A DNA stretch of 54,804 nucleotides, filler included, from Stramenopiles sp. TOSAG23-2 (Eukaryota), in assembly GCA_900128395.1 (NCBI GenBank). It is 3 parts of 3 records of this genome, joined end to end, with 100 filler letters (N's around TTAATTAATTAA, not from the genome) between each part and the next. Parts side by side here need not be neighbours in the genome. Positions count along the whole stretch, not along the records: positions 36,613 to 54,804 come from LT649615.1; 2 more parts are not named here. The stretch is one strand, 5' to 3'. This document shows positions 4,178 through 44,021 of this stretch, in pieces; the stretch's first letter is position 1, and each line of letters starts with the position of its first letter. A program made the translations under genes and the position numbers. Under the pieces are notes generated by a model. That model saw nothing but the letters and a program-made list of their open reading frames with translations. It searched no databases and was not told where the DNA came from.

Positions 4178-5426
4178 TTTTTAATTATTATATTTATTAA
4201 CTCTTCTTTAAATATAGATATACCCTAATTAATATGTATATATATGTCGAATTCTTCTTTATATGTGCGTGTGTGTGTGTATATATATATATATATATGT
4301 ATATCACCGTATATATGAATATGTATAAGTCTACGACTGTATTCTTATATTATCATTGTATAATATCTATGACATTTTGATGATTGTATCTATTCTATCT
4401 ATATATTCTATTGGATATTATAAGATATTATAGATTGATGGTGGTTGGTTGCTATTTATATGGTAATTTGCCAATCAGGAAAAATATCAATGTTCTCTTA
4501 GAACTTTTCTTAGTTGTAATAGCCGTCTACATCTATACTATTGGTGTTTTTTTACCTATCACGAATGATAGCAACCTGCGATACTAAAAAAAGTGAGGTT
4601 TGATTTTTTGAAGATTATTATTTAGATTGTTAGTCGAGCTTTCGAGGCGGTAGCTACAATGCTCACAGTATTGTTTTCACCGCTTTGCTAGGCAGGCAAC
4701 AGATTCCACTACTTTCCTTTTGTAGTGTCTGTATAAAAAAAAAATAAGAACGAAAAAAATTAAAATCTCTGCTGCATGTAAGCATACACACTATTAAATA
4801 TAATGCTGTGAATATGCTATTTACAAAAATACAAAACATACCTTTAATTTTTAAAATATCCGAAAATTAGGTTTAAAAAAACCGGTATACTCAAGTATAC
4901 AAAATACCATTATCAAGTGCTATCTAGTAATTCTAGCGAAGAGGTATATGAAATAGCAGGTAATTAAATTTCAATTGATTGCCCCTTAACAATAACTTAA
5001 CAATAACATTACCTTTTACACGTTGCGAAGCCCTACAAAATACTATGGATTTTTATTTAGTGCTTTATGTTAAATTATTTCGTTTTCGATCTTTTAAAAA
5101 TTAATACAAGAACAACACAGCATGGGAAAACAATATAATAAGAGGCTGTAGCATCAAAATACTATTATAACGAAGTGGAGGATTTTCCTTTTTTTTTGAA
5201 CTGAAAGTGGGGGGGAAGGCATAGAAAATAATTCCATGTTATTATCGACACAACATATAAATAATTATTATTATATTGGTTATTGAACAAAACATATTGA
5301 TAGATTGATAATAGTATTGATCATTCTCATTATACATACAGATTCATACATTGTAGTTGTCCTTTATTTGAGAGAGAGTGAAACTATATAGCTTACAGAT
5401 TATAGAGAGCAAACGTTAGAGACACC

Positions 5427-11273: not shown

Positions 11274-11963
11274 GGGGTTTTTGTTTTACAGTGAATACGA
11301 GCAATTAACGATATCTTCTCTTTAAGAACAAAGGTTTTTAAAAGTATTTGATTTGTAGTTTTTCTATCATCTATAGTGTATATGTATATAACTATATCGT
11401 GTATATTTAATTTTAGTTTATTTTAGTTTATGTTATACATATATTATTCATTACTAAAAACGCACCATACCAGCGTAATAATATTATGTGCTTATAGTGC
11501 TTAAGTTAATACAAGCGAGAGAGAGGTAGTTTTTCTTGTTATTGTTATATTTATTTCATTTATGCCCGTTTTGTAACAGTATATGTGACATACCAGGAGT
11601 AATGCCTTAGATTACCCAGAGTATAATATATAGAAGTATGCACGAAGATCCGTTTCCATCACATCCATCATCATGATACCACACATCATATAGTAGTATA
11701 CCATAGTGTTATTATATAATGTTACATAGAATAGCAATATAAATATATATAATAATTATACATTCTTTACATTTATCATAGATAGAATAGCTATATATAT
11801 ATATACAAGCTATATAAAATATATATCACTATCCGCTGCACACATATTCCTTTAACATTCATAACAATAGAAAAAAGAGACTCAGGTAGAAAGAGAGAAA
11901 TACAATTGTAACTAGTATCTTGTAATTTACTAGAATATATATATATATATATATATATTAATA

Positions 11964-13406
11964 ATGGATAAAGAATATGTACCACCTTCGACAAAAGACA
12001 TTGCTGATTGGTCGAAATCTTGCATTGGAATTTTAGAATTGACTGAGACGATGGGGAAAACAATAGATGATACACTAAATACGATGAAATCTGATAGGGA
12101 TAGAGTAAGACGTCGTAGAGATTTCATTTTAAATAAATATCAAGATACAGAAGTTACCTTAGATAAAACACTTGCCGCTTTACCAACTGATTTGACTGAA
12201 TATAAAAAATTATTAACAAAGAAAGATTCTATGAAAGCAGCAGAAGAACAACAACGAAAATTACTAGGCTTAACAAGAGATGCCGATGATGACACCTTAG
12301 TTGAAGAAAGTACGCGTAGGTTAAGGGCTTATTTATCTGGTGAAACAGATGAAGCACCAAAAAGTCAATTGTTAGAGTTAAATATGGAAGATATTGACAA
12401 GGTGACTAATAATAATAATAATAATAATAATACGACAGATTCGTTGTCAAATGCTAATGCTAACAATAACAATAATAATAATGGTAAAAAAGAAGAAGAA
12501 GAAGAAGGGGAAACAAAAGAATCTGTCATTGACACACAAGGTAAAATAGAAAATAATGACAATAATGGGGGGGAAAATAACAATAATGATAATGAAGGTA
12601 GTAAAAAAAATACTTCTACTAAAAGTAAAAAAAAAGGTAGAGGGAAAAAAAGTAAAAAGAAAATGAAAAGTAGTAGGAAAGTAGGACCTTTAAGTCCAAT
12701 AAGAGAAAACAAAATAAAACAACAGCCAGCAGCACATGATAGATTATTAGCTATCCTTCAACAGGAAGAAGAGCGAGATGTCTTTCGTGCTCAAACATTA
12801 AAAGCATTGGAGGTCAATAACCCAGAACGGATCGAAGAAATGAAGCGTATATTTGCAAAGGAAAGACGGGAGGCAAATAAAGTTATGGAACAAATATTAA
12901 GTGATTTTAAACCAAGTAAAAGAAAATCTGAGCCAGTTACTCCATTGTCTTCAAAAGAACGACGAGAGAAATACAATATATCGACGCCAAAGAGTACTAG
13001 AAATAGTAGCAACAAAGGTGGCAAATCTTTTTTTCCATCGCCAAAATCATCAAATTCATCCATTAGAGGTCAGAGTGGTGGCTTTAGAGGGACAATGTCC
13101 GCACCTAGCATCACACAAGCAGCACATAGTAGGAAAAAACATAAACCGTTTAAAGCTAAAAATATGATGCCAGGATCATTTGCACCACCGAGTCCACCAA
13201 ATCTTCCTGATAATATTGATAAAAAATTAATTGATTTACATGGTGAACAAGCACGTACAGATCCAATTGATGGTTCCTCGATTGATCGTGGTGTTAAGGA
13301 TTTAATACATGATCATTCAACTCAAGTAGATCTGAATTTTCCTGATTTAGAAATGTATAGACGAAGTTACCATGATCGTGCAAAATGGAATGAGCCGAAG
13401 TATTGA
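11964..13406 (+). CDS. Hypothetical protein with poly-Asn tracts and a conserved-looking helical domain
   Basis: 480-aa ORF after an (AT)n leader, with the segment LLAILQQEEERD...KRIFAKERREANKVM. Confidence 0.75.
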   Translation: MDKEYVPPSTKDIADWSKSCIGILELTETMGKTIDDTLNTMKSDRDRVRRRRDFILNKYQDTEVTLDKTLAALPTDLTEYKKLLTKKDSMKAAEEQQRKLLGLTRDADDDTLVEESTRRLRAYLSGETDEAPKSQLLELNMEDIDKVTNNNNNNNNTTDSLSNANANNNNNNNGKKEEEEEGETKESVIDTQGKIENNDNNGGENNNNDNEGSKKNTSTKSKKKGRGKKSKKKMKSSRKVGPLSPIRENKIKQQPAAHDRLLAILQQEEERDVFRAQTLKALEVNNPERIEEMKRIFAKERREANKVMEQILSDFKPSKRKSEPVTPLSSKERREKYNISTPKSTRNSSNKGGKSFFPSPKSSNSSIRGQSGGFRGTMSAPSITQAAHSRKKHKPFKAKNMMPGSFAPPSPPNLPDNIDKKLIDLHGEQARTDPIDGSSIDRGVKDLIHDHSTQVDLNFPDLEMYRRSYHDRAKWNEPKY

Positions 13407-20094: not shown

Positions 20095-23000
20095 TTATTC
20101 CCAAACTTTTATTTCTCGTCTGACCGGCTTGGCACTTGCAGGTCTCTTATTTTTTTTACTCCCCCGAACTTTTCCATTCAATCCATCGCTTGGAGTCAAA
20201 AATTTCTTTCTACCAGCACGTGTTGCTGGACCTGCTGTTTGTGGGCGATGGCGTTTATGATGATGATGGTGGTGATGATGTCGTCCATGATGATGATGTC
20301 CAACATTTCCTTTTTCAAATATGGCTAGTCTATCCTTCAACTCTTGGATGTATAAATCGGATTGACGTTTTTCACGTGACATAATTTTCATCTCAGATAC
20401 AATAGTTGCTTTTTCAGTAAGTATCTTAACCTTATCTTCTTCCCACCGTTTTTCAGCTAATTGTTGTTGTTGATCCAATCGACTAATGTCATGTCTAGAT
20501 TCTGTCAACTTGTGTTTCATCGATGACATACGTTCTTGTACTCTAACAAATTCTTCCTTAGCAATCTTTAATTTTTCTTCGATTACTTTTGCACTTTCAT
20601 CTTTCAATTTTTTCACCTCCATCTCTGCAATTTCACGTGCTCGTTGATCCGCTGCCATGCGTTGTCGCATCATTTGAATAACTTCATTTTGTTCATGTAA
20701 ATCTTCAATAGCATCATCTAATTCACGTCTCATAGTTGATACAGAATCTGTACCAGCGCTACTCTCTTTTTGTCTTAATTCCTCTTTTTCTTTTAAAATA
20801 TTAAATTCTTCTTGTAAAGTTAGCAGTTGTTTTTTCATTTCAGTTTCATTTATTTTTGCTTTCGATTTCTCAGTATACAGTGCTTCTTCTTGATCCTCTA
20901 GCTCTACTATTTTATTTTCGAGTTGTTTGATTTCCTCCTGTAATTCTTTTTGGTATTGATTCGCTTCTTTTGTAGACTCCTCATATTTAACTTCAACTTC
21001 ATTTAAATCTTCACTTTGCAAACGTAAAATTTCATCCAATTGACTTTTCTTCATTTCCATTTTTTGCATCATGACTTGCTTTTCCAATTCAACTTCGGCT
21101 TTCATTTTCATATTCTCTTGTTTTAACTCAACCACTTGTTTTTCTGCATGCTCCAAAGCATTGGTTAAATATTCAACAACATCTTCGCCAATTTCAATGT
21201 CTGACATTTCATTGCCTTTGCCACGTTTGCTTTTTAATGCTTTCACAGCATTATGCGGGGATCCGGAGGCGGTAGTTGTGCCACTTTTACTCTCCTTTCC
21301 CTCAGTTTGTAATTTATCAACACGCTTGCTACTACCAGAATTTTTTAAAAACTTTTGGCCAGGAAATGTATTTCTTAAACGTTGCCGGTCTAATTCTTCC
21401 AATGCTAATATTTGATCATGTTGTTTTTTATATTCTGGGGTATGTGCATATGTACAATGGACATCCGAAACTGCATCATATTCTGGCAACTTTTCTGCTA
21501 CAAAATTATGGTCCCACCCACTTTCTAGGAAGAAACGTTCTATCATCGATTGGGTCGTAGACGGAGTGTTTAACAAAGGGGGCAATCGAGCTTTTTGCTC
21601 TTCTATTTGTTTTTTGCCACTTAAACGCAGTCCAAGAATCACATAACGCCATTTTGTTGTTCCTTTCCTTAGTAATTTCAATCTCGTTTTGCACAATATA
21701 CGCATGAAAATGGTTTTACGTTGTTTGTACATTTCGACTGTGTTTTGCCATGATGACCACGTCATTAACATAACACGTCGTCTCCATTTATTAACAGCAC
21801 GTTTTCTTAAATACCGTAAACGACGAATGTCTTTAATATAATCTATCCATGATTCCATTGATTGTGATATAGTTTTATTTCGTATTTTTTTAACAGCTTT
21901 GCTCAATTTCGTACGCAATATCCGCTCTTCCGAAACAAAATCTGCAAAAGCGTTGAAATAAGCTGAAAGCGTCCTGTTTGCCCATTTCATAGCAGCTTTT
22001 TTCAACGCATATCGATGATGTTTAATAGTAGCAACGTTGCCTTTCCAAGTGTTCAAACAACTGACTAATGCTGGGTTTAACATTTTTAATGCAGCGCTTT
22101 GTGCCATATTTGCACTATTTCTATTTTGCATAGTTACTTTCACCCACGTTTTCCAGCCTGCATTTAATTTACCATTCAGCATGCGTTTCACAGTTTTGCT
22201 AACAATTTTTCGCAAGCGTTTCCTTTCCTCTACCATATCAATCCAAGTATTAAACATTGATGCTGCAACACGCATTTTCATCCGCATCAATGCACGTTTA
22301 ACTTTAAATCTATTTTCTACTATTTCATTAACTGCATCTGACCATCCAAAAAATGCACCTGCGATTACACGTTTTTGCATTTTTGCAGCGACGCGCATCA
22401 TAATAATTTTGTTACGCTTGTCCTCCTCTACCATGTCTTTCCATGACCTCAATGCACTGCTAAGTTTACCATTGAATAGACGTTTTAATATTCGTACCAT
22501 CAATGCTCGCTGGTGATCTTGTTCTGCTTTTTCTGCTTTTATGACGGAATCCCATTTAGCCCATCCGGCTAATAATTTTGTTTTACCTAAACGGGAAAGT
22601 ACTTTCCATGCTAATTGTTTGAAATGTATTCGTTCATTTCGATATTCATCCCATCGATTGTATGCGCTTAATACGACTCGTTGTCTCATTTTTTTGCCAA
22701 ATCGCCTTAGCATTACCCGTATTCGTATTTTTTCTTGAATGTTTTCATTCCAAGAGTCAAATACAGCTGCTACAAGTCTATTATGCATTTTTGCCAATGC
22801 TCTACGGACAATAACATTCATGCGCACCTGCTCTTCATGCACTATAACCCATTCTTCGAAGATTTTCATCAATATTTTTTTGTTTCTACGTCTTGACATC
22901 CTGCGTATTTTCAATGCATGTTGTTTGTTTTCATCCGTTTTGAATTCCCAAATATCAACAGCAACTCTTAAATTTCGATTAGCTAAACGTTTTAAAAGCT

Positions 23001-25264
23001 TTGTTAACAGCAGCTTCCTCATGCGTGTCAAGTAATCGTCATAATCTTTGGCAACGCGCCCTCTTTCTATATTTAATTTCCACGTCGAAAAGCCATATTT
23101 GTACATTTTCTCTTGATCGCTATTTAATCTATTGAATATATTAAACAACAATTTACCAAGTCGTCTCCTACAGCTTTGAAACTCTAGCCATGTTTCAAAT
23201 GCCATCATGGATTGACGTCTCATGATTTTCGCTGCCGCTCGCTGTAATAAGACATTTTCTTTTTTGTTGGAAACGATTTTCCAATGCCAATATTCAAATG
23301 TTTTCTTCATAGCACCTTTTGTCCATGATGAAACCGCTCTTTTTAATGCACGCTCATATTCCTTTTGTCCTTCGACCATTGCAACCCATGTTTGCCAGCC
23401 ACTTAGTACCTTTGTATTGATCATTCTTGAAAATACTTTTTCCATGAAATTAAAATGTTCATCGCTCATTTCAATATTGCTTTTCCATGTGTAAAATCCT
23501 TTTGCGTAATTCGATTTGGACAAACGCGTTATAAGATTTTGCATCATTCGTCGCTCATATTGCCGTGTTTTTACATATCCACACCACTGTTGAAAGGTCA
23601 TGCTGATGTTTCTGTTTTTCATTCTAGCTGCAGCACGCATCAATGCAACCCTAGTACGATTTTCATTTTCCGTCCATTCTTTCCATTCGTTTACAGCAAA
23701 TTGACTCCACTGTTTAAACATTTTGCTCATAATTGTTTGCAATAACTTTTGCCGTTGAATTATTCTAGCTTCTCCGTTGTTGATATACTCAACAACATTT
23801 ACCCAATGCTTAAAACCCATGAATAATTTGCCATTGCATAATCGTGATACAATACGCTTAACGCGTTTTCTTTGTGTTACCCTAGCAAGAACATATTGTT
23901 TCCATTGTTCCATTACCATGGCAGTTTTTCGATGCATCATCTTTGCTGCTGCTTTCACTAATTTGCGCCGTATAGATGCTGCTTCGTTGGTTTCACTTTC
24001 CCACGTTTTAAACCCCATACCTTTTATGACACGGTAATGCCTTTTCAAGAGCATGAACATTTGCTTTAATTTCCATTCCTTTAATTGGTCTTTCAATTCA
24101 TTGATTTCATCTTGGTTTTGATAGTCTATCATTGCCATTTTCCATGGAGAAAAAACATCACGTATAACATGCATTCTCGTTCGCTCAAATATACGTTCGA
24201 ATAAACTTCGTTGGTACTGTCTTTCACTTCTTACATATTTTATTTCATTAAATATTTCTTTTGCACGCCTTGATCGTTTTTGTTTAAACAATTGCTCGAC
24301 ACGCACTGAGCGTGTTTTATACAACAACCATGCTTTAAATATTTTTGTGTTTAATTTATTGATATAATGCGAACTAGCTATTTTATGGCCTCTATTACTA
24401 TTTTTTTGGTGATGTATACCGAAATTCCATTGCACCCATCCTTTTCTCCATAAACGATTTCGTGTTTTAAATACAATACGTTTAAGCAATTGGTCTCTTT
24501 CAAACAGCGATTGATCACCATATATATCTTGAACATCTTTTAATGCTTGAGTACGTTTATCTTCTAAATCTTTCATCATAACGGTTACTTTGTTCGTCAA
24601 TACACCAAATGTTTCTTTGATATCATCTAAACCACGCTTAGCAGAGGAGCGTTTACGCTTCAACTCTTTTTGCATTCCCGTTATATTGATCAAGTTTGTT
24701 TCAACATCGTATAATACGTCTTTAACTTTTTCAGAATCTTCAGTAGTAGCATCTAATTTTTTACTTAATCGGCGTAATTGATGAACTAGCATATCGACAT
24801 GCCCATATTTCCAACGAAAGATTGCCTTAGCTTTCCACCAATGAGCTCGTTTTTGAAACACAGCAATTAATTTACTTGCACCCATCATTCTTTTCATTTG
24901 ATCAAACTTCACATTCACAGAACCACCTTGCACTTCCCGCTCAATATCTCTACGCAATACTTTAATTAGCTCAGGATCTATTTTTAACGCCTTTGCAATA
25001 CGTTGCCTTCGTATATATGCATCAGATGAAGATAAATGACGCTTTACTTTCTTTACTTTACCATCAGCATTTTTTTCTGCGATTGATATTTTTAAAAGTA
25101 TGAAATCTTGTTAGTGAATTGTACTTTTTTTTTTTTAAATACTGTGTCAATTTAAGATATATATAGTAGAATAAGAGAAACTTACCACCCGCTGTCCATG
25201 CGAAAAATTTATTTTCAAGCTCTTTTTTGTCCTTCCCATTTGCCGTTTTAGGTGAACTAGACAT
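20095..25264 (-). CDS. Sfi1-like centrin-binding repeat protein with C-terminal coiled coil; exons 25264-25186 and 25076-20095
   Basis: Dozens of about 33-aa repeats of the type L..AF..W.... Intron 25185-25077 (GTAAG...CTAAC...CAG) joins MSSSPK...WTAG to EKNADGK in frame. Confidence 0.8.
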
Positions 25265-26777
25265 GATGTATATATATATATATGTATGTATGTATGTATT
25301 TACTCAATTTATTGTACAGGAGCACACACGCACTTTCGTAATTGTCTAATCTCACTAGCCTTATAATACTATTGGTGATTTAACTATCACGTCTTCTTAT
25401 AATAATAATAATTTGTGTGCGTGTATGCGTATCCTAGTCGATATATATATATATACGTATATATATTCGAATTGCTGTTAAATAATTATATTGTGTTATA
25501 CGTCTTATTGATGTTATCAAAAGAGGCTATATATTCCTTCATATCATATTTGATGTACAAGTTTGTTTTGGATTATTAATTGAATGATAAAATAATTATC
25601 ATCATGTATTGTGTATTATTGTGTAGTATAGTGTGTAGTAGTAGTGTGCCAGTGTGCGATGATGATATAGCGATGCGATAGACACAATTTAAATTATTGC
25701 TGTGTTGTTTCGCTCTGAACTGTAAATGTAGTAGATTTACATATGCATGGATGATATATGTATAGGACTGCGTACACACATATTATATCCGTATTACAGT
25801 ACTATTTGTGGGTGCAAATCTTTTTACTTTTACTTTTTACATTGCAAAAGGCAAAAAGCAAAAGAGCACAAGTTTAATTTTGAGTATTATACAAAGTACA
25901 ATAGGACAGTATGGTGCTATAAAAAAACTTCGCAAAAAAAGTTACGTTTGGTTTTTACGAAAAATGATTTATTGGCATTTTAGATTATATTTGTGTTGTG
26001 TAAGACTATAGAATACTAATGGCATAGCAACTTATGTATGGAATTTGATCAAGACAAATATTTGTGGACTTAAGAACTTTAAATATATTTACTGTGGTAT
26101 AAAAGAGGCTTAATATGATATTCCATCGGAAATTTATACAACAGACTTTTTTCGCTGTGACAAAGTTGTAAGGCTATAGAAAACTACATTCCTAATTCCT
26201 ACTGCCTACTACCTACTACCTACGTACCTACTGCCTATATAGCTCCACTGTATTCTGTATTGTTTTAATCATGGCATCAAGCGGCATCACGGATCACGGC
26301 ACTTCAACGACAATATTTGGGCAACGATATTTAGTAATAACACAATTTACTATGCCAGTATGAACATAATAGCTACTACGTAATAGCGTTATTAATAGAA
26401 ATTGGTAAAATACAAGGTACTATCGTACTATCATCATCAACAACAAAATTAGTTGTTACAAAAAAAAAGCATTACATTTTTTCGGATATGCAAAAACTCT
26501 GTTGTCAGTACTATTTAGTATACTAAAAATTGTATTTCGTCTATCATGAAATTTTATAAAAAAATAAAAAAAAATGAACAAATAACAATAACTTTTATAC
26601 ACCTGGTACTACATGCATCTATAAATATACTGTATATACATATATTATGTAGAATATGAATACAATATTGTCACATTCAGATATACATATCTATTATTTA
26701 AAGATTTTACTATAATAAGTACATTCATAGTTGTAAAAATAATTAATTTTACTGATAAATTGAATAAATTTGATATA

Positions 26778-29204
26778 ATGGATGAAAGTAAAACTGTCGA
26801 TGCTAATAATATTTCATCCTCGTCAAAATATAATGAGGAGAGCAAAACTGAAAGTAAGTCAAACGATAATATAAAAGAACAAAAAGTACGTGATAAAATT
26901 GATCATGCATTAGCGCAAAGCGTTAAAAGTAGGGAACGAAAGCCTCAGCCATTGGAAACAGGCTTTGTACCATTTGCAGAAAAAGGTAGAAAAATTACAA
27001 AAGCAAGTTTAATTGTACGGTTAGAACAAGAATTAGAAGATGTTGAACGGCAATTAGCAGGTATAAGTGAAATAAGAACTGATAATTTTTATAAGGAAAG
27101 AGACCGAAGCCGGACACCATCAGCATCAAGTAGGGGAAGTTCTCGTTCAAGCGGTTTGTATAGAAAAAATAAACGACCTGGCACTGCACCAAGATCACGT
27201 TCTGCAAATAACAGATTAAAGCGGATTGATCATTCAGATAGTGATTCTAAAAAGAAAAGACCACAAAGTGCAAGTGCAAGCACAACAAGAATGAGACAAC
27301 AATCGCAAAGACAAAAAAGTGGTGGACGTAAATCGAATACTACTACTACTACTAATAATAATAAAGCATCATCAAATAGAAATAATGCACGTCCTGAATC
27401 GAATTATAATAATGATAATAATAATGCTCGAAGCAGGCGTCCACAAACAGCAGGTAGAGGACGAACATCAGCACCATCATCTGCAACAAGTAGTAGAAAT
27501 ACATATACATCTTCGAATAATAATAATAATAGAAATAAACGACCACAATCCTCACCATTAGTAAGACATGGTGCAGTTGGTCGTAAACCAAGGAAACTAC
27601 GTAGCATTGCTGGTTATACTGCACCTGATTTAATATATGATGAAGGTTTATTAGCAAAAGCAAGACAATTAAATGCAAAAGATTTAACTAAAATGGGTGA
27701 TTCCAATTTATTTAGACAAGCATGTTTAAAAAGTGGCTGTACGTTTAAAGCAGTATTTCCAAAACCAGTTAGTACTTTTATGAATGTTAAAATTGGTTTT
27801 CAACGAATGCGTTTAAATGGTGAAGAAGCACATGAACGATGGGCAGCATTTGAAGATAGAAGATTAAAATTATTAGCAACGGTATTGACGGAACGTCAAA
27901 ATATTATTGAAGAAATGAAAAAAAAACAATGGGAAACAGATCCATCTAATCCAAAAGCAAAACCATCAGGTAATAATTTAACGGGTTTAGCATCAAAAGC
28001 ATTAGTAGAGGAAGATAGACGTTCAAAGCAAGTAAAGCGAAATCAAATGCGCAATCATCAGTTGCTTTTAAATGAAAATAAAGCATTAGAGCAACGTCGT
28101 ATTGATTATGAGAAACGTTTGAAACAAAGGGCTAAACGGGAGAAAGATCTCATGGAAAAAAAACATAAACATGAATTAAGGAAAATGGAAGTTAGTCGTA
28201 AAAAAGAAGCCGCATTGCAATTAGCGCGTAAGCAACGTGAAGAGAAAGATCGTGAAAGATTATTGAAAGGAGAAGCAACACAACGACGTAAATTTGAACG
28301 CGCAGAACGAATACGACTGGCAAAAGCAAATGCTAATAAAGAAAAAGAAAAAATAGAACGTGAACGTAAACGGCATCGGGATCAGGTAAAAAAAGATCGT
28401 GAAAAAGCAATGTTACAAAAAGAAAAAATGATACGTATACGATTGTTGCAAAAAGATAAACATATTGAAAAACAAAATAAATTAAAACGACGAGAATGGC
28501 ATGAGAAAAAAAAAGAAGCATTGTTTAAATCGCAAACGAAAAAAGAAAATTTAGAACGTATTAAACAACAACAAAATTATCATCGTGTCAAATTAAGGGA
28601 ACAATTGAAACAAGCAGATTTAAAACGTGAGAGAATGAATGAATTGAATGTAGCAGTAATAGAAGAAAGACGTAAAGAAAGGAAGATAGCGTTGATAAAT
28701 AAACATTCCTTGAAACGTGGTACACCAGTTGAACGTAATATTATGCCAGGACCTGGTGCATATTCCATACCAACAACTATTGGTGGTGATGGCAAAGGTT
28801 TTAAAATAGGTGATGAAAATCCAATGGGTTATATTGAAATTGTAGTAAATCGTGCAAAACAAATACCTGGACCAAATGCATATGGTTTTGCTGATTATCC
28901 AAAGAAAATGAAAGCAGTGAAATTTTCAGATGCCAATGTACCATCTGATGTGGAATGGATCATGCGACGTAGTAGAGAAGTACCAGCGGCTGATGCATAT
29001 CAAAATGGCAATGCATTTAAAAGTGATACACCAGCATTTAGCATGGGTAATTTCAAACCAAAAAGTGATATTGATTGGATCATGGCACGTAGTGCTAGTA
29101 CACCTGGTCCTAGTGATTATTATGAAGGTTTACCAAAACCACGTAGTCCATTGAGGAAAGTTGCTAAGAAATTAGGCGTAGATGTTGAAGCTACTGATGA
29201 TTGA
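26778..29204 (+). CDS. Coiled-coil protein with C-terminal PGP/SHIPPO (STPG/ODF3-like) repeats, likely flagellar
   Basis: First ATG at 26778, RPQSA/RPQTA repeats, a charged coiled coil, and MPGPGAY, IPGPNAY, VPAADAY, TPGPSDY repeats. Confidence 0.75.
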   Translation: MDESKTVDANNISSSSKYNEESKTESKSNDNIKEQKVRDKIDHALAQSVKSRERKPQPLETGFVPFAEKGRKITKASLIVRLEQELEDVERQLAGISEIRTDNFYKERDRSRTPSASSRGSSRSSGLYRKNKRPGTAPRSRSANNRLKRIDHSDSDSKKKRPQSASASTTRMRQQSQRQKSGGRKSNTTTTTNNNKASSNRNNARPESNYNNDNNNARSRRPQTAGRGRTSAPSSATSSRNTYTSSNNNNNRNKRPQSSPLVRHGAVGRKPRKLRSIAGYTAPDLIYDEGLLAKARQLNAKDLTKMGDSNLFRQACLKSGCTFKAVFPKPVSTFMNVKIGFQRMRLNGEEAHERWAAFEDRRLKLLATVLTERQNIIEEMKKKQWETDPSNPKAKPSGNNLTGLASKALVEEDRRSKQVKRNQMRNHQLLLNENKALEQRRIDYEKRLKQRAKREKDLMEKKHKHELRKMEVSRKKEAALQLARKQREEKDRERLLKGEATQRRKFERAERIRLAKANANKEKEKIERERKRHRDQVKKDREKAMLQKEKMIRIRLLQKDKHIEKQNKLKRREWHEKKKEALFKSQTKKENLERIKQQQNYHRVKLREQLKQADLKRERMNELNVAVIEERRKERKIALINKHSLKRGTPVERNIMPGPGAYSIPTTIGGDGKGFKIGDENPMGYIEIVVNRAKQIPGPNAYGFADYPKKMKAVKFSDANVPSDVEWIMRRSREVPAADAYQNGNAFKSDTPAFSMGNFKPKSDIDWIMARSASTPGPSDYYEGLPKPRSPLRKVAKKLGVDVEATDD

Positions 29205-35700: not shown

Positions 35701-36512
35701 ATTCAATTCGTTCGTGGTGGCATAAAGGACGATTAACAGAGGAATTAAATGATCACGTTTGAAATATGATGCATAATGCAGCAAATTCCATTGTGAATTT
35801 GAACTTTTCCATACTAAACTTTTTTCTTTATTTAATTTGTACAGGTAATATACTAGATCGACAGTAGCACCTTTCCATACAGCGAAAGAAATTGGTATAA
35901 AACCTGATTTATTTGTAGGTTTAGATAAGAGCATGATTTCTTGTCCTGCTGGGAGTAGCGTTTTTACATGCTCAACAGTTGTTTGTTGCCATGCCTCTTC
36001 AATTTGGGAGTGCAAAGTCTGTATCATTGTGTATTGATTTTTTATTGATGCGATGGTGCTAATACCATCATCATTGATTGTGGATGGTTTGGCAGAAAGT
36101 GTTTTTATGGAACGCATAAGTTTTTTGAGATGGCCTTTTTTTGTTATACTGCGTTGTATAGGATGGGGAGTGTTAGTTTGTAAAACGAAAACATAAAAAC
36201 ATGGAAACAATATTGATCTAACTTACCCTGCTTCTTTTAAATCATTTTCTTCCATCGAGATAATAATTTCTAAATCNNNNNNNNNNNNNNNNACTGTGCC
36301 ACAATATTCATCATTTTCCCATTTTCCTTCAAACAGAACAGTATTGTTGGATGCCAATAATTTTCCATTTCCATGACGTTTATTATTCTCCCATTCTCCT
36401 TCATAAACTTCTCCATTATCGGCATATGTCATTTTACCTTGTCCACAACGTTCGTATGCTGGAGTATCTGAGTTAAGGGTTCCTTCATACACATTTTTTG
36501 TGTCGTCACACC
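32769..36512 (-). CDS. Multidomain kinase: MORN repeats - ankyrin - coiled coil - SAM - atypical protein kinase - helical domain - FYVE; frameshifted as assembled
   Basis: MORN (YEGEWENNKRHGNG). Intron 36226-36149 (GTAAGT...CTAAC...CAG) is in frame. Ankyrin (LLHYA, GKTPLQLA), SAM (VKDWLSSLNLSMYYELF once the 46-nt insertion is removed), kinase VAK / WGDVKPGN / DFD / TPGYISPE, and FYVE (WKPN...RRHHCRKCG...RICDTC). Confidence 0.8.
35059..35097. repeat. 39-bp perfect inverted copy of 33646-33684, flanked by a 16-bp direct duplication (35051-35066 and 35097-35112)
   Basis: The reverse complement of 35059-35097 is ttccaccctactttttctaacgtattttttttcaagttt, identical to 33646-33684. ataaatttaaacttga occurs twice, 46 nt apart. 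Confidence 0.95.
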
Positions 36513-36612
36513 NNNNNNNNNNNNNNNNNNNNNNNNNNNNNNNNNNNNNNNNNNNNTTAATTAATTAANNNNNNNNNNNNNNNNNNNNNNNNNNNNNNNN
36601 NNNNNNNNNNNN
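36513..36612. other. Scaffold gap (100 nt) with TTAATTAATTAA spacer
   Basis: N run with ttaattaattaa at 36557-36568. A separate 16-N gap lies at 36277-36292. Confidence 0.97.
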
Positions 36613-36759
36613 TCAAATCCAGCTGGTAAAACTAATATACCAATCTTAATAGGTGGTGGTGCCCTTTTTTGTTTTAACCCTTCAATCGTTGATGGTTTTA
36701 ACGACGTACGACATTGTCGTTTTGCAGGTGGTGGATCTGTTGTAAGTGATGCATGCCAT
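36613..36759 (-). CDS. Probable gene 5' end (MASLTTDPPPAKRQ...KIGILVLPAGF) running into the gap, with an apparent 4-nt frameshift
   Basis: (AT)n leader and acaaccATGG context. ATG GCAT GCAT CA reaches an open frame only if one GCAT is removed. Confidence 0.45.
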
Positions 36760-37354
36760 GGTTGTGTGTGTATATATATGTATGTATATATATATTTATA
36801 TTATGTTTTCTATATTTTCTACTTTCTATAATTTAAATTCTAATTCATTCATTGCTTAGTGTTCATCAAAACATGCCTATTCCTTAGATGTATATTATTA
36901 AGGTAAATTAAAATTGTTTCTACGCGATAATATTGAGTATAAATTCCTATATTCTCTATATGTAATAGCGAGCTAACAGAGACCCAACGACCAGCGAGCT
37001 GTGTGGGCGAGCCATGCAAAATGACATCGCGCAACAACATTTTGTTGTTGCAACACACCACCACAACAATAATAATAATACGCACAACGCACAACACTAC
37101 TGACTACTGGCACATATAACTCACAGGTAATAATAATAATTTTTAGAGATACATTTTCCAAATAGTATATGTCCAGATACTCCATTTTCCAACTAATATT
37201 GCAATATATTCGCCATTGATTCTTACATAAATTATTCTCTATTTGATATAAATTATTTAAAATATTATTCAATTATTTATCAAACCATAATTGAAAAGCT
37301 TGCATATATATATATATATATATAACACTTAATTATTTTTTTAATTAAAGTGGT

Positions 37355-40239
37355 ATGGCGAGCTTAGCTTTTGGTGACGATGATAATAATAACAATAACA
37401 ACAACAACAACAACTATTCGAATTTGAATATTGGTTATGCTGCTGCGGGTAAAATGATGCGCACAAGAAGCGAAGAATCAAGAATGAAAAGAGATAGTGA
37501 AATTGCGAAAAAGTTACAAGAACAATTTAATCAAGAAGATATGGAAGCTATTGAAAGACGTAGGAAAGAAATTGAAGAAGATGATTTAACTTTACTAGAT
37601 TTACTTGCGCCGTATAGAGATAACATTAATAGTTACCTTGATAAAAAATTTCGAAATACGTTAGGTACAAATTGTACTATAACTTGTATAGAGCGCAATT
37701 ATCATTCTTTGCCAGGGCAACCAATGTATAATAATTTTGTTACTGCGTGGCAAAGTGTTTCCAATGAAACTATTCAATATATGTTTCATGGTACAAATGA
37801 AAATAACATTACATCAATATGTCAAAATGGGTTAGATCCAACTCGACGTGGCCAACATGGTCAAGCATACGGCCAGTAAGTAAAATTGTTCCATCTTTTT
37901 AAATATATAATAAATTGACATCTCTAACACAAAGCTTTTTTCTATACCATGCTCCATATAGAGGGGAATATTTTGGTAAAGATGCTAGAATTTCGTTAAA
38001 TTATTGTTCAGGAACAAATTTAAAAATGTTGGTATTTGTTTGCTTGATGGATAAAAGTGGATTGACATATGACAGCAGTAATATGGTAGTTATAAATAAG
38101 ACATCACACCAATTGCCCATATTTATCGTTCATTTCACTTGTCCACAACGCTCATCATTTGGGGGTTTTGGTGGTGGGGGAGGTAATACATTTGGTGGTG
38201 GTACCTTTGGTGGTGGTAGACGAATAGGTGTTAGAAAAAAGATAAAACCGAGGAAGAACAAAAAACCTATTAATCTTGGTGGTGGTGGTAGCTTTGGCGG
38301 GGGGCAAACATCTACAAGTGGATTTGGTGGGCAGTCAAATACATTTGGCGGGCAGTCAAAAAATACATTTGGTGCAACACAATCAACAACTAATGGACCT
38401 ACTGGCTTTGGTTCCGGGCAAACATCTACAAATACAAGTGGATTTGGCGGGCAGTCAAATACATTTGGCGGGCAGTCAAAAACAACATTTGGTGCAACAC
38501 AATCAACAACTAATGGACCTATTGGCTTTGGTTCCGGGCAAACATCTACAAATACAGGTGGATTTGGTGGGCAGTCAAATACATTTGGCGGGCAGTCAAA
38601 AAATACATTTGGTGCAACACAATCAACAACTAATGGACCTACTGGCTTTGGTTCCGGGCAAACATCTACAAATACAAGTGGATTTGGTGGGCAGTCAAAT
38701 ACATTTGGCGGGCAGTCAAAAACAACATTTGGTGCAACACAATCAACAACTAATGGACCTATTGGCTTTGGTTCCGGGCAAACATCTACAAATACAGGTG
38801 GATTTGGTGGGCAGTCAAATACATTTGGCGGGCAGTCAAAAAATACATTTGGTGCAACACAATCAACAACTAATGGACCTACTGGCTTTGGTTCCGGGCA
38901 AACATCTACAAATACAAGTGGATTTGGCGGGCAGTCGAATACATTTGGCAGTGGCGCTTTTGGTGGATATACTGCACCTACAAGCGGAACTACATTTGGT
39001 GGGGGTAATAGTAATATGTTTGGGGCTAGTACATTTGGATTTGTCAGTAATAATAATAATAATAATAATAACAACAACAACAAGAAAATACAAACTTTTG
39101 GTGGCAGCAACAATCTTCAAAAACATTCAGTAAATGAGAAATTATCTTATCAGTATACCGATACTATAAATTGGGAAAAAGAAACGAAATGGAAACGAGT
39201 ATATCCACCTGAGTACGATCCAAATGAAGAGGATATAATTGATTTGGAACCATTTGGAGACGGTATTGAAGAAATCATAATTAAGTTGCCTTGTACTCAT
39301 GTATATAAAAAGAATAATTTACTCAACTGGTTAACAAAATCACAACCACGATGCCCAATGTGCAAAAGATATTATGGTCTCGGTAGTCAGCCATCCGGAA
39401 CAATGTCCATTGTCTTGATGCCAAATATTGACTGTGGTGGTTCCCCACATGGCGTAGGTACCTTTCAAGTCACATATAATTTCCCTAATGGAGTACAAGG
39501 TACTAGGATGAATAATCCAGGAAATCGGTATCAGGGAACACGAAGGAAATGTTATTATCCAAATACAAAAGATGGAAATGTAATGGTACAGTTGTTAAAA
39601 CTTGCATTTTTAAATGGTGTATTATTTGTAGTTGGTCAAAGTGTAACAACAGGACGAGATAATTGTGTAATCTGGGGTGGTATACATCAGAAAACCAATC
39701 TACATGGTGGTCCACAAAAACATGGTTGGCCTGATCCAAAGCGTCTTGAGGCAATGACTAGAGAATGTAAGGACAATGGAATTGAATTGAAAATTCCCGC
39801 AAAAACAAAACAAAAAAACAAAGAAACGATGAAAAGCACATCATTATCGCCATTGGAAATGGCAAAGCATTTCTTACTGTATATTTCGAAATATACAGAC
39901 AAAAAGAATACAAGTGATGAGCGTACCAATCATATCTTAGCGATGCTTGTAGATTTAAACTTATCTCAAAACGATATCAACAATGAAGTCTTTTTGAAAG
40001 GAAAAATTTTAGAAGCAGAAGAAATTTGTAAAAAAGAAATGATAGAATTTGGTACAATTCTTTTCAAAAAAATAGAAAAGCATGCGTCGCGAAAAGATAC
40101 AAAACATGTGCAAAAGATATTGGCAATGTTTTTAGAATTGGGGCGTAAAACTCGTGTGCGATTAGTTAATAAAGAGCAAGATGCTAACAATGAATTGTTT
40201 TTGATAGAGAAAATTAAAGAGGCGGAGGCATTGATTTAA
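37355..40239 (+). CDS. PARP-like ADP-ribosyltransferase fused to FG repeats, degenerate RING, Deltex C-terminal domain and two MLLE-like domains; exons 37355-37875 and 37962-40239
   Basis: Intron 37876-37961 (GTAAGT...CTAAC...TAG) rebuilds HGQAYGQ|GEYF. MFHGT; LPCTH...CPMC; GSQPSGTM, YNFPNGVQ, PGNRYQGTRRKCYYP, FVVGQSVTTG, WGGIHQKT, HGWPD; KILAMFLEL...KIKEA. Confidence 0.9.
38303..38950 (+). repeat. Coding 120-bp tandem repeat (40 aa, FG-rich), about 5.4 copies with alternating A/B variants
   Basis: Near-identical units start at 38341, 38461, 38581, 38701 and 38821. The variants KN/T/S and KT/I/G alternate. Confidence 0.97.
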
Positions 40240-42111: not shown

Positions 42112-42656
42112 GTGTTGTATGGTAAACGTATTGGAGAAGGGGTATATGTGTGTATATGATGTACAATATACTGTAGATATAGTCATAATATATGTATCTT
42201 TTCTGTTGCGCGAGGCACTCCGCTACTAAAAAGTTAAAAGTCGTTCTTATTCTACTACAGTATAGTATATTAATATTATACTGAACACTACTCCTATGTG
42301 ATGATAAAATCTTAGGACCTTGATTGATCTATTAAGGTACCAGGTTAACACAATTTAAATTGTCCCGTATTAGGTGTATAGTAAGTAAGCATGCCAGGCA
42401 TCATGTCGTATCTTCCTTAATATATATAAATTTATCGATCGAAGTATAACTACTACTACATTGAAATGACATCGATCGAGAAGAAAGAAGCATTTTTTAT
42501 AAATTTAAATTGTTGTGTGTGTGTGCGTGTGTGTGTGTGTGTTGTAGAAGAAAAAGAAAGAAATGTACGTGAACAAGCACACAAATATTCCAGTGTCATC
42601 AAATACAATCGTTTATGTATAAACAACAAGTAGCATTTTAGTCGGAAAAATAATAT

Positions 42657-44021
42657 ATGGCAAGTTTTTCACGTGCAAGTACTGGTCGTAATAATAATAA
42701 TTTATCACCACGTACAAGAAGAAATCAAGCAAGGGCAAGGCGTACAAATGGAGAAGTACGTCGTGTAGGCCTTGCCATGGGTGCTGATGAAGCTACTGTG
42801 GCGATTGTTGATTCATGGGTGAAAAGCAATCCATATTTGATACATCAAATTGAAGCATCTTTTTTCTTTGGTATGAAGCTTCAATATAATTTTTTAAAAG
42901 GAAATATGAATAAAGATCAAGTTGACACATGTAAAAGTTTATATGGGTTGAGTGGTGATACAGATTCAGATAACGGCGCTGCTAACCGTCAAGCTGCTGA
43001 AGGAATGTTTGATACATTCATGGCTGATAACAATAATCGTAAACATGGAAATGATGGCAGGAATGTTAATAATGTATATAATAATAACAATAATGATATG
43101 ATAAATAATGATGAAGCGATAGCAAAAATGTTAGCTACTAGTGATGGAGCAAATAATAATAATAATAATGATTTTATTGGTATAAATTTAATGTACAATA
43201 ATAATAATAATATGAATATGAATAATAGTAATTACAACAATCAAACACAAGTTGATTTGGATGCAGAACTTGCTAGACAATTACAAAATGGAGATAATGA
43301 TATTGGTAGAAGATATGATGCTGCTAGATTTAGAAATAATAATCGAAATGGAAATAGGGGACGAGGACGTGGAAGAGGACGATCGAATAATCGTAGACGC
43401 GTTCGTGTTAATAGAAATAACAATAATAACAACAACAACAATGGATGGCAAGATGCAGGATTATTTTTTCAAAATGATGGAGTTTCAGATAATCGATTTA
43501 ATACATATGAAGAAATGCTTGCGTTAGATGAAAATAATGTAAAAGTTGGATTAAAAAAAAATGTAAGTAACTCTATATTTTATTATAATATAATATTGAT
43601 TTAAAATATCTCTCGCTAACAAAAAAAGATAATATTATCGATATTATATATATGCATATATATATATATATATATATATTATCCTTGGTGATGCATTATA
43701 TATAATGCATATTGTAAATATTATATTAATTATATACAGGAATTAGCAAGATTGCCTCAGATTGAATTTAAAAAAAAATCATCATCATCTAGTATTGGTA
43801 GTAATGATCCAAATTATATGAATGGTTCAAGTAGTAATTCATCAAATAATAATCAAGTGGAAGATGAACCAACATGTAATGTCTGCTTGGAAGAATTTGA
43901 AAAAGGTGATAAATTAAGAGTCTTGCCATGTTTTCATAAATTTCACGTTCGATGTATTGATAAATGGTTAAAACAAAGTAAATTTTGTCCGACTTGTCGC
44001 CATATTTGTAATGAATTGTGA
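42657..44021 (+). CDS. RING-H2 E3 ubiquitin ligase with MIU-like motifs; exons 42657-43562 and 43740-44021
   Basis: Intron 43563-43739 (GTAAGT...CAG, phase 0) gives [10 protein letters not shown]...GLKKN|ELARLP. RING-H2 CNVCLEEF...[16 protein letters not shown]...[14 protein letters not shown] and DAELARQLQ. Confidence 0.92.

What the first reader, a model, noticed from the sequence alone, without database searches (positions are those of the whole stretch)
37355..40239. Single-chain PARP-Deltex fusion: candidate ADP-ribose writer and ADP-ribose ubiquitin ligase with MLLE domains
Seen: splicing out the 86-nt intron joins two ORFs in the middle of the PARP signature. The product reads MIU-like motif (DSEIAKKLQEQF), compact ART domain (FHGT...YGQGEYF...SLNY...LPIFIVHF), FG spacer, RING-like, Deltex C-terminal (DTC) domain, and two MLLE/PABC-like domains. 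Established: in animals PARP9 and DTX3L are separate proteins that heterodimerise in interferon and DNA-damage responses, Deltex RING-DTC modules bind ADP-ribose and ubiquitylate it, and MLLE domains bind PAM2 peptides of mRNA-metabolism factors. Inference: a protist enzyme that both writes ADP-ribose and ubiquitylates it, aimed at poly(A)/translation machinery and possibly antiviral. I know no described protein with this architecture, but I could not search for one.
Basis: partly seen in the sequence, partly recalled or inferred. Interest (0 to 1): 0.85.

Follow-up and report, generated by a model that had tools for sequence, protein, structure and literature searches.

The report
Single-chain PARP–Deltex enzyme, marine protist
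A spliced, expressed gene of an AT-rich marine microbial eukaryote joins in one protein an enzyme domain that should attach ADP-ribose and a Deltex module that should attach ubiquitin to ADP-ribose, two activities that animals split between partner proteins.

Summary
RNA contigs from two independent marine metatranscriptomes join 37875 to 37962 and skip exactly 86 nt with GT..AG ends. A DNA contig is continuous there. The product is 932 aa.

- **ART domain:** it is PARP-like. A homologue's model has pLDDT about 95 and matches PARP12/13/10/14/15. It carries an H-Y-aliphatic triad (H145, Y176, M215), typical of mono-ADP-ribosyltransferases.
- **DTC domain:** unambiguous (Pfam E 6e-38). It keeps the His582/Glu608 equivalents that DTX2 uses to ubiquitylate ADP-ribose.
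- **RING:** degenerate. Only 4 of 8 zinc ligands remain.
- **MIU-like helix:** a conserved trait of this ART subfamily (13 of 19 ART-only relatives).
- **Linker:** a 120-nt FG repeat in 5.3 copies, apparently variable in copy number.
- **Tail:** two real internal repeats, but MLLE identity is only weakly supported (16.6 bits against a cut-off of 27). The same module also ends an Aquarius-like RNA helicase.

The architecture is not unique. ART plus DTC proteins occur in 4 of the 150 best cluster representatives, one of them in reversed domain order. I found no paper that describes them. This is a new variant of known kinds, and all catalysis is inferred.

The parts
37355..40239 (+). Whole gene: two exons, 932-aa product
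   Evidence: ORFs and sequence; in-silico splice gives 2799 nt with a single terminal stop
37355..37875 (+). Exon 1 (residues 1-173 plus 2 nt of codon 174)
37876..37961 (+). Intron, 86 nt, GT..AG
   Evidence: RNA contigs of X6 and X8 skip it; the DNA contig of X5 keeps it
37962..40239 (+). Exon 2 (last nt of codon 174 to the TAA stop)
37493..37528 (+). MIU-like helix DSEIAKKLQEQF (residues 47-58)
   Evidence: The pattern D-x-x-[LIMVF]-A-x-x-[LM]-Q lies 83-106 aa (HGT column) upstream of the ART core in 13 of 19 ART-only relatives and in the window. It occurs in 1 of 127 DTC-only proteins. Weak Pfam CCDC50_N hit, E 0.022
37592..38166 (+). ART (PARP-like) catalytic domain, residues about 80-242, interrupted by the intron
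   Evidence: Pfam PARP 26.5 bits on the exon-1 half. phmmer to the P0003 ART gives 5e-29 and 9e-26. Family profile versus PDB: PARP12 2.6e-7. Homologue model and Foldseek
37787..37789 (+). His145 of FHGT (triad position 1)
   Evidence: Aligned to FHGT of PARP12; invariant in A2
37969..37971 (+). Tyr176 of GEYF (triad position 2)
   Evidence: Aligned to G-S-Y-F of PARP12; invariant in A2
38083..38085 (+). Met215 (inferred triad position 3, aliphatic)
   Evidence: This column in A4 reads I 12, V 5, M 2, L 1, C 1. Its assignment to the triad rests on my manual alignment to recalled PARP10/PARP1 sequence
38137..39147 (+). Low-complexity G/T/S/N/F linker with 31 FG dipeptides
   Evidence: Composition; absent from P0003 and P0004
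38218..38268 (+). Basic patch RRIGVRKKIKPRKNKKP inside the linker (NLS-like by eye)
   Evidence: Sequence; function not tested
38313..38949 (+). Tandem DNA repeat: 120-nt unit (40 aa), 5.3 copies, 96% matches
   Evidence: The same ORF is 164 aa shorter in P0200, a ≥90%-identity relative from another assembly, against 778 aa
39226..39366 (+). Degenerate RING: C618, H620, C638, C641 kept; the other four ligand positions are D, D, K, N
   Evidence: Alignments to the RNF13 and RNF165 RING-H2 domains. Pfam matches only the second half of RING models
39382..39783 (+). Deltex C-terminal (DTC) domain, residues 648-781
   Evidence: Pfam PF18102 E 6.2e-38, 130.4 bits, profile 2-133 of 133. PDB DTX2, DTX3L and DTX1 at 9e-26 to 3e-24
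39685..39687 (+). His749, equivalent of DTX2 His582
   Evidence: Alignment to 6y22_A, taking chain index + 387 as DTX2 numbering. Role from PMC7615817 passages
39763..39765 (+). Glu775, equivalent of DTX2 Glu608
39841..40029 (+). Tail repeat 1 (helical, ...HILAMLVDL...)
   Evidence: Internal repeat. No Pfam hit of its own to MLLE
40030..40236 (+). Tail repeat 2 (helical, ...KILAMFLEL...), MLLE-like below threshold
   Evidence: Pfam MLLE E 0.0081, 16.6 bits against a cut-off of 27

Best explanation
The gene encodes a 932-aa single-chain coupling of a PARP-type mono-ADP-ribosyltransferase with a Deltex-type E3 module.

**Shown:**
- The gene is spliced and present in RNA libraries.
- The domain order is MIU-like helix, ART domain with H-Y-aliphatic triad, FG-rich repeat linker, one-site RING, DTC with the His/Glu pair, and two tail repeats.

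**Inferred mechanism:**
- The ART domain uses NAD+ to put single ADP-ribose units on a substrate or on itself.
- The DTC pocket of the same chain binds that ADP-ribose.
- The RING-like domain brings an E2~ubiquitin. [quoted passage not shown]
- The long flexible FG linker would let the two catalytic ends meet on one target.
- The MIU-like helix would hold ubiquitin.
- The tail would dock the enzyme on partner peptides of RNA-processing complexes, because the same module ends an Aquarius-like helicase.
For: **Splice**
- RNA contigs of 2 of 3 RNA runs laid show the joint; the DNA run does not.
- Homologues read through the junction.

**ART domain**
- P0003 passes Pfam PARP at 44.5 bits against a cut-off of 26.7.
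- The family profile hits PARP12 (2.6e-7), PARP10, ZAP, PARP14 and PARP15, with FHGT and G-x-Y-F...S..Y aligned.
- The AF2 model of P0003 has pLDDT about 95 over residues 150-305.
- Foldseek's top hits are all mono-ART PARPs, prob 1.0, TMt 0.56-0.68.
- The third triad column is aliphatic in 20 of 21 sequences. Citarelli 2010 describes this for mART Clade 3 (passages).

**DTC domain**
- 130 bits in Pfam; about 40% identical to the DTX2, DTX3L and DTX1 structures.
- The His582 and Glu608 equivalents are present in all 6 ART+DTC proteins. Across all DTC domains examined, 130 of 175 have the His and 105 of 175 the Glu.
- The role of these residues comes from PMC7615817 passages.

**RING**
- The central Trp and the CP-x-C proline are kept in the alignments to RNF13 and RNF165.

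**Recurrent association of this ART subfamily with DTC**
- It occurs in both domain orders: P0003/4, P0033, P0049, and P0052/P0185.
Against: - No enzymatic activity was tested.
- The window's own ART was not folded. The model is of a homologue, and its RING-DTC part was poorly predicted (pLDDT mostly below 70).
- The exon-1 PARP hit is 0.2 bits under Pfam's cut-off, and the exon-2 half gives no Pfam hit alone.
- Four of eight RING zinc ligands are lost, so E2 binding is uncertain.
- The Ser568 equivalent of DTX2 is Val. That Ser568 matters for ligand binding is recalled, not read.
- The third triad residue was placed by manual alignment.
- The tail's MLLE identity is unproven. A spurious-looking FAS_N hit scored as well in the same search.
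- One RNA run holds an unspliced piece.
Confidence: 0.6

Rival explanations
1. Reader-type degron ligase. The ART marks targets with mono-ADP-ribose. The DTC only reads the mark, and the RING-like domain then ubiquitylates lysines of the marked protein for degradation. Ester-linked ubiquitin on ADP-ribose is at most a side product.
For: DTX2's DTC was first described as recruiting ADP-ribosylated proteins for ubiquitination (PMC7442474, abstract start in the listing). A 'Parp7 generates an ADP-ribosyl degron' paper appears in the same listing, title only. The domain content here fits equally well.
Against: The His/Glu pair needed for hydroxyl activation is strictly kept in all 6 fused proteins, although it is lost in 45 (His) and 70 (Glu) of 175 DTC domains overall. 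A degenerate RING is a poor candidate for efficient lysine transfer.
Confidence: 0.2
2. Scaffold without E3 activity. The half-degenerate RING no longer binds an E2. The protein is then an ADP-ribose writer plus reader (DTC) held in FG-mediated assemblies.
For: Ligands C1, C2, H5 and C6 are replaced by D, D, K and N. The nearest DTC relatives share non-canonical RING regions. The FG repeat tract is long and seems to vary in copy number.
Against: The second zinc site, the central Trp and the CP-x-C proline are kept. U-box and SP-RING domains work with fewer or no zinc sites (recalled). The catalytic His/Glu would have no reason to be conserved.
Confidence: 0.1
3. The ART domain is a non-catalytic partner, as PARP9 is for DTX3L. 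The DTC module alone does the chemistry on free NAD+/ADP-ribose or on marks written by other PARPs.
For: In animals the Deltex partner PARP9 has a divergent triad and was reported inactive (Citarelli 2010 passages).
Against: The window keeps H and Y, the S..Y pocket and an aliphatic third residue, unlike PARP9's Q-Y/S-T/S. These residues are invariant across the subfamily.
Confidence: 0.07
4. Gene-model artefact. Two separate products are made: an ART fragment ending at the in-frame TAA at 37877-37879 from unspliced RNA, and a RING-DTC protein from an internal start.
For: One unspliced RNA-library contig in X14 (37888-38142). Database ORF calls start inside or after the intron (P0200, P0154).
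Against: Spliced contigs come from two studies. An unspliced product would cut the ART fold in half. The homologues are continuous. The database ORFs look like intron-blind gene calls.
Confidence: 0.03

Closest known systems
DTX3L-PARP9 heterodimer of vertebrates (with PARP14)
   Same: It pairs a macro-PARP-clade ART domain with a RING-DTC E3. The DTC is about 40% identical to DTX3L's (PDB 3pg6, E 2.1e-24).
   Different: Here it is one polypeptide. The ART keeps H-Y-aliphatic, whereas PARP9 is Q-Y/S-T/S and was reported inactive. No macro or KH-like domain was detected in the window's pieces by Pfam. The RING has lost one zinc site. The His594 equivalent is His as in DTX1/2, not Tyr as in DTX3L.
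DTX2 / DTX1 RING-DTC (ADP-ribose 3'-OH ubiquitylation)
   Same: Same DTC fold family, with the His582 and Glu608 equivalents.
   Different: No WWE domains (no Pfam hit). The RING is degenerate. The Ser568 equivalent is Val. An ART domain sits in cis.
Human PARP10 (RRM, UIMs, mono-ART)
   Same: A ubiquitin-binding helix motif lies upstream of an H-Y-aliphatic mono-ART. PARP10 is among the best sequence and fold matches. Its UIM content is described.
   Different: The motif here is MIU-like (inverted orientation; consensus recalled), not UIM. There is no RRM. An E3 module is attached.
Dictyostelium DDB0232928 (U-box, Macro, PARP; Citarelli 2010 Clade 3D)
   Same: A protist Clade-3-type PARP fused to a RING-related E3 domain (passage).
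   Different: That protein has a U-box at the N terminus and a macro domain, with no DTC reported. 'Deltex' occurs 0 times in that paper.
Database relatives P0003/P0004, P0033, P0049 (ART, RING-like, DTC) and P0052/P0185 (RING, DTC, TAZ, ART)
   Same: Same ART subfamily and same catalytically intact DTC. P0003/4 are 59-63% identical to the window over RING-DTC.
   Different: None of them has the MIU-like motif (0 of 5). P0003 and P0004, the two aligned with the window, lack both the FG repeat linker and the tail. P0003 (Pfam IBR hit) and its 84%-identical relative P0004 carry a Cys-rich N terminus instead.
MLLE/PABC domain of PABP and UBR5
   Same: About 65-aa helical unit. The motif K-I-L-A-M-F-L-E resembles the family's KITGMLLE (recalled). 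Sub-threshold Pfam hits occur in two paralogous copies. UBR5 MLLE is the best natural PDB hit of the helicase's third copy, E 0.69.
   Different: Scores are below the family cut-off. There is no significant PDB match. The fold is not established.

Membership tests
PARP / ARTD catalytic domain (PF00644) | Sequence match above the Pfam gathering score | tested here: inconclusive
   The window exon-1 half scores 26.5 bits against 26.7, and the exon-2 half gives no hit. The domain is split by the intron, and the joined product was not submitted. Homologue P0003 scores 44.5 bits, so it meets the cut-off.
PARP / ARTD catalytic domain (PF00644) | ART fold | tested here: met
   Tested on homologue P0003 only. 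The model has pLDDT about 95 for residues 150-305. Foldseek hits PARP12, ZAP, PARP10, PARP14 and PARP15 at prob 1.0, TMt 0.56-0.68.
Mono-ART PARPs (Clade 3 of Citarelli 2010) | H-Y-aliphatic triad in place of H-Y-E, plus the nicotinamide-pocket S..Y | tested here: met
   H and Y are aligned to PARP12 and PARP10. S185 and Y188 follow at +9 and +12 from Y176. The third column is I/V/M/L in 20 of 21 sequences, though its placement is by manual alignment.
Deltex family E3 | DTC domain | tested here: met
   PF18102 at 130.4 bits against a cut-off of 25, covering the full profile. PDB DTX2, DTX3L and DTX1 hits.
Deltex family E3 | Catalytic His-Glu pair (DTX2 His582/Glu608) | tested here: met
   H749 and E775 align to them. 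Their role comes from PMC7615817 passages.
Deltex family E3 | Canonical eight-ligand RING immediately before the DTC | tested here: not met
   Only C3, H4, C7 and C8 are present. C1, C2, H5 and C6 are D, D, K and N. The canonical regex fails. All RING Pfam hits are below their cut-offs.
MLLE / PABC (PF00658) | Match above the gathering score or an MLLE fold | tested here: inconclusive
   Repeat 2 scores 16.6 bits against 27; repeat 1 has no hit. No PDB hit with the tail or with the two-repeat profile. The AF2 single-sequence model has pLDDT 48.6. Atlas gave no usable hit.
MIU (motif interacting with ubiquitin) | Helix with acidic-x-x-hydrophobic-A-x-x-L-Q-type core (consensus recalled) and ubiquitin binding | not testable with these tools
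   The pattern is present and conserved in the ART subfamily. The two papers opened did not print the consensus in their text. Binding is untested.
FG nucleoporins | FG repeats plus an NPC-anchoring domain | tested here: not met
   FG repeats are present. No nucleoporin family appears in the Pfam output.

The most novel reading that the evidence does not exclude
This is a self-contained 'write and ubiquitylate' enzyme. One chain deposits mono-ADP-ribose and immediately caps it with ester-linked ubiquitin. A peptide-docking tail module, recently exchanged with an Aquarius-like spliceosomal helicase, aims it at RNA-processing complexes. A copy-number-variable FG linker sets its reach or its partitioning. 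Together with the reversed-order relatives, it would show that mono-ART/Deltex coupling is ancient and has been hard-wired by fusion more than once.
Probability: 0.3. Interest if true: 0.8.

Novelty: new variant of a known kind. Interest (0 to 1): 0.6.

Why it matters
Ubiquitin esterified to ADP-ribose is a recently found hybrid mark. Its writers in animals are split between PARPs and Deltex ligases, and its physiological targets are still being mapped.

A natural fusion of an apparently active mono-ART with a catalytically intact DTC is Rosetta-stone evidence that the two activities act on the same targets. It also offers a one-protein system in which to reconstitute and dissect the coupled reaction.

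The one-zinc RING would test how little RING is needed when the DTC supplies the catalytic residues. The shared tail module points to an untested link with RNA-processing machinery in marine protists.

Tried and rejected
**Tail (MLLE question)**
- The single-sequence AF2 model had pLDDT 48.6 and is not usable.
- PDB sequence searches found no PABC/MLLE. With the tail, the only hit was peroxin 14 at E 1. With the two-repeat profile, the only hit was Sly1 at E 0.92.
- The ESM Atlas gave only sub-0.9 unrelated hits the first time and no usable hit the second time.
- An attempt to search Pfam MLLE in the record behind L001 failed because the record is not held.

**ART domain**
- A mixed ART+DTC alignment (A3) misaligned the ART-only proteins onto the DTC and was discarded. 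A4 was used instead.
- The exon-2 half of the ART alone against PDB gave only a spurious TFIIIA hit.

**Relatives and genome**
- The metagenome contig scan returned only the same gene at 99% identity (L001), so it added no divergent orthologue.

**Reads**
- Read laying covered only 37100-38270. I avoided the long repeat, so there is no RNA statement for the rest of the gene. Parts without cover (before 37425) say nothing.

**Literature**
- The MIU consensus was not found in the text of two papers.
- The Aravind review id that I recalled is not held.

Full report
**Observation**

The + strand between 37355 and 40239 holds two ORFs in different frames, 37349-37879 and 37903-40239. An 86-nt stretch, 37876-37961, begins GTAAGT and ends TATAG. 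Removing it joins codon CA|A (Q174) and gives a 2799-nt reading frame with one terminal stop, which encodes 932 residues.

I laid contigs of three RNA runs and one DNA run on 37100-38270.
- One contig of X6 and one of X8 (different studies, X8 a polyA library) join 37875 to 37962: 'skips 86, GT..AG'. They have 255 and 159 letters on the shorter side.
- The DNA run X5 has a contig that runs through the intron.
- The third RNA run, X14, has one piece ending at 37875 and one unspliced piece, 37888-38142.

The stretch is held by 20 listed runs from 13 studies, 9 of them RNA and nearly all marine or seawater metagenomes. The window is 33% G+C. Its neighbours are ordinary eukaryotic genes: V-ATPase A, a UAA transporter, a SAM-kinase-FYVE protein and an amine oxidase. 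No whole genome is held.

Two database proteins give independent support. P0003 (618 aa) and P0004 (623 aa) read ...HGQAHG[V/A]GEYFG... without interruption. They leave exactly one residue between the ends of the two window ORFs.

**ART domain**

- The exon-1 half scores 26.5 bits on Pfam PARP against a cut-off of 26.7. The exon-2 half alone gives nothing.
- I did not submit the joined product to any tool, so fold evidence comes from homologue P0003. Local phmmer matches its ART to the two window halves at 5e-29 and 9e-26.
- P0003 passes Pfam PARP at 44.5 bits.
- A profile of 18 ART-only relatives (A2) hits PARP12 (2.6e-7), PARP10, ZAP/PARP13, PARP3, tankyrases, PARP14 and PARP15. FHGT and G-x-G-x-Y-F...S..Y are aligned.
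- AlphaFold2 of P0003 with a 22-row alignment gives pLDDT about 95 for residues 150-305. It is poor elsewhere (mean 56.9).
- Foldseek against PDB puts PARP12, ZAP, PARP10, PARP14 and PARP15 on top, at prob 1.0 and TMt 0.56-0.68.
- H145, G146, T147 and Y176 fall in invariant columns of A2.
- The column I take as the third triad position (M215) is I 12, V 5, M 2, L 1 and C 1 in 21 sequences. This placement rests on my manual alignment to recalled PARP10 and PARP1 sequence.
- Citarelli et al. 2010 (passages) state that most Clade 3 PARPs replace the triad Glu by Ile, Val, Met or Leu and act as mono-ADP-ribosyltransferases. They describe PARP9 as Q-Y/S-T/S and inactive.

**MIU-like motif**

DSEIAKKLQEQF lies at residues 47-58. 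The pattern D-x-x-[LIMVF]-A-x-x-[LM]-Q lies upstream of the ART core in 14 of 25 ART-bearing proteins examined.
- That is the window plus 13 of 19 ART-only relatives.
- It is 0 of the 5 other ART+DTC proteins.
- It occurs anywhere in only 1 of 127 DTC-only proteins.

The spacing to HGT is 83-106 residues (the HGT column printed). The motif is therefore an old companion of this ART subfamily, as A2 also shows. That it matches the MIU consensus is recalled. The two papers I opened did not print the consensus in their text. A weak CCDC50_N hit (E 0.022) is the only tool hint.

**Linker**

Residues about 233-569 are G/T/S/N/F-rich, with 31 FG dipeptides in 330 aa. A basic patch sits at 260-276. 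The DNA holds a 120-nt unit in 5.3 copies at 96% matches. P0200 belongs to the same ≥90%-identity cluster as P0154 (a near-identical ORF fragment of this gene whose tail is 100% identical) and comes from another assembly. It is 164 aa shorter across this ORF (614 against 778 aa). This suggests that the repeat number varies between populations or close strains. P0003 and P0004 have no such linker.

**RING-like domain**

Pfam matches only the second half of RING models, and all hits are below their cut-offs. In the alignments to RNF13 and RNF165 RING-H2:
- C3, H4, C7 and C8 are present (C618, H620, C638, C641);
- C1, C2, H5 and C6 are Asp, Asp, Lys and Asn;
- the central Trp and the Pro of CP-x-C are kept.

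A canonical RING pattern precedes 86 of 175 DTC domains in the hit set. It does not precede those of the window, P0003, P0004, P0033 or P0049, but it does precede that of P0052.

**DTC domain**

Pfam PF18102 gives E 6.2e-38 over profile positions 2-133 of 133. The structures of DTX2, DTX3L and DTX1 match at 9e-26 to 3e-24. Taking chain index + 387 as DTX2 numbering in 6y22_A, His582 aligns with H749 and Glu608 with E775. His594 aligns with His and Ser568 with Val.

Zhu et al. [quoted passage not shown] Mutating either residue impairs ubiquitylation. Both residues are present in all 6 ART+DTC proteins. Across all DTC domains examined, the His is present in 130 of 175 and the Glu in 105 of 175.

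**Tail**

The last 132 residues are two repeats, 37% identical, E 7e-7 in a pairwise test. Evidence on MLLE identity is as follows.
- Pfam MLLE reaches only E 0.0081 (16.6 bits against a cut-off of 27) on repeat 2. A FAS_N hit of similar strength on repeat 1 looks spurious, which calibrates that E-value.
- PDB searches, the Atlas and a single-sequence model gave nothing usable.
- A search for longer proteins found P0155 (1576 aa). Its last part is 66% identical to the whole tail.
- P0155 is an SF1 helicase closest to Aquarius (1.2e-41), then UPF1. By eye it carries three copies of the module.
- Its third copy again hits Pfam MLLE below threshold (E 0.0057). Its best natural PDB match is the UBR5 MLLE, aligned end to end, at E 0.69.

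I read the tail as a mobile helical docking module that is probably MLLE-related (about 0.55), not as an established MLLE.

**How common is the architecture?**

- phmmer of P0003 against 1.84 billion cluster representatives gave 3007 hits at E ≤ 0.001. Only the best 150 were listed.
- A script that mapped ART, RING and DTC pieces on them found both ART and DTC in 4 of 150: P0003, P0033, P0049 and P0052. A further 19 are ART-only, and the rest are RING/DTC proteins, many with tandem DTCs.
- Pfam confirmed PARP+DTC in P0049 and P0052. In P0033 the PARP hit is below cut-off, at 23.8 bits.
- P0052 and P0185 have the reverse order, RING-DTC-TAZ-ART, with the same ART subfamily.
- P0033's cluster has 18 members and P0049's has 4. 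P0052 comes from a transcriptome set, and P0004's cluster includes a eukaryote-proteome gene model.
- Weaker relatives below rank 150 were not examined, so these counts are lower bounds.

**Literature**

Six full-text searches were run, five of them aimed at PARP/Deltex (one search was for the MIU consensus). Word searches inside Citarelli 2010, Perina 2014, Ahmed 2020 and a 2026 DTX3L-PARP9 co-evolution preprint found no mention of a PARP-Deltex fusion.
- 'Deltex' occurs 0 times in the first two.
- 'fused' and 'fusion' occur 0 times in the preprint.
- In Ahmed 2020 they occur only in methods text.

This covers the open library only. Supplements were closed, and a review I recalled is not held.

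**Verdict**

The mechanism (write mono-ADP-ribose, then ubiquitylate it in cis) is the best-supported reading because both catalytic centres look intact. It remains inferred. The architecture is a rare, undescribed but not unique variant of the known PARP and Deltex kinds.

Noticed in passing
P0155 (stored protein; tail matches window 39736-40236 at 60% by tblastn): An Aquarius-like SF1 RNA helicase of 1576 aa ends in what look by eye like three copies of the same helical module that ends the window's protein. This implies recent domain exchange between two unrelated genes.
   Followed up: partly
window 38313-38949 versus P0200: The FG repeat tract seems to vary in copy number: the window has 5.3 units, while the same ORF in P0200, a ≥90%-identity relative from another assembly, is 164 aa shorter.
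   Followed up: partly
P0005-P0007, P0009, P0010, P0012 and many others: Many marine proteins carry two or three tandem DTC domains. Often only some copies are preceded by a RING, and across all 175 DTC domains the His or Glu equivalent is missing in a sizeable minority.
   Followed up: no
P0203 (216 aa, cluster of P0154): This contig product starts like the window's RING-DTC and ends like P0004's C terminus. It may be an assembly chimera or a recombinant between paralogues, which suggests that both gene types occur in the same samples.
   Followed up: no
P0156 (2124 aa): A eukaryote-proteome gene model places the P0004-type ART-RING-DTC protein at the end of a much longer product. It is possibly a merged gene model.
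   Followed up: no
window 5406-10244 (+), 20098-25110 (-), 26625-29201 (+), 11934-13403 (+), 42654-43601 (+), 2-1735 (+): Six long ORFs (316-1671 aa) have no Pfam family at E ≤ 1e-5.
   Followed up: no
window about 36430-36620: The window holds 192 N in all. Runs of X in the translations of ORFs between about 36430 and 36620 place at least some of them there, just upstream of the gene. The adjacent minus-strand ORF has MORN-like YEGEW repeats by eye, not tested.
   Followed up: no
window 37888-38142 in run X14: An RNA-library contig covers most of the intron. It could be unspliced pre-mRNA, intron retention or DNA carry-over.
   Followed up: no
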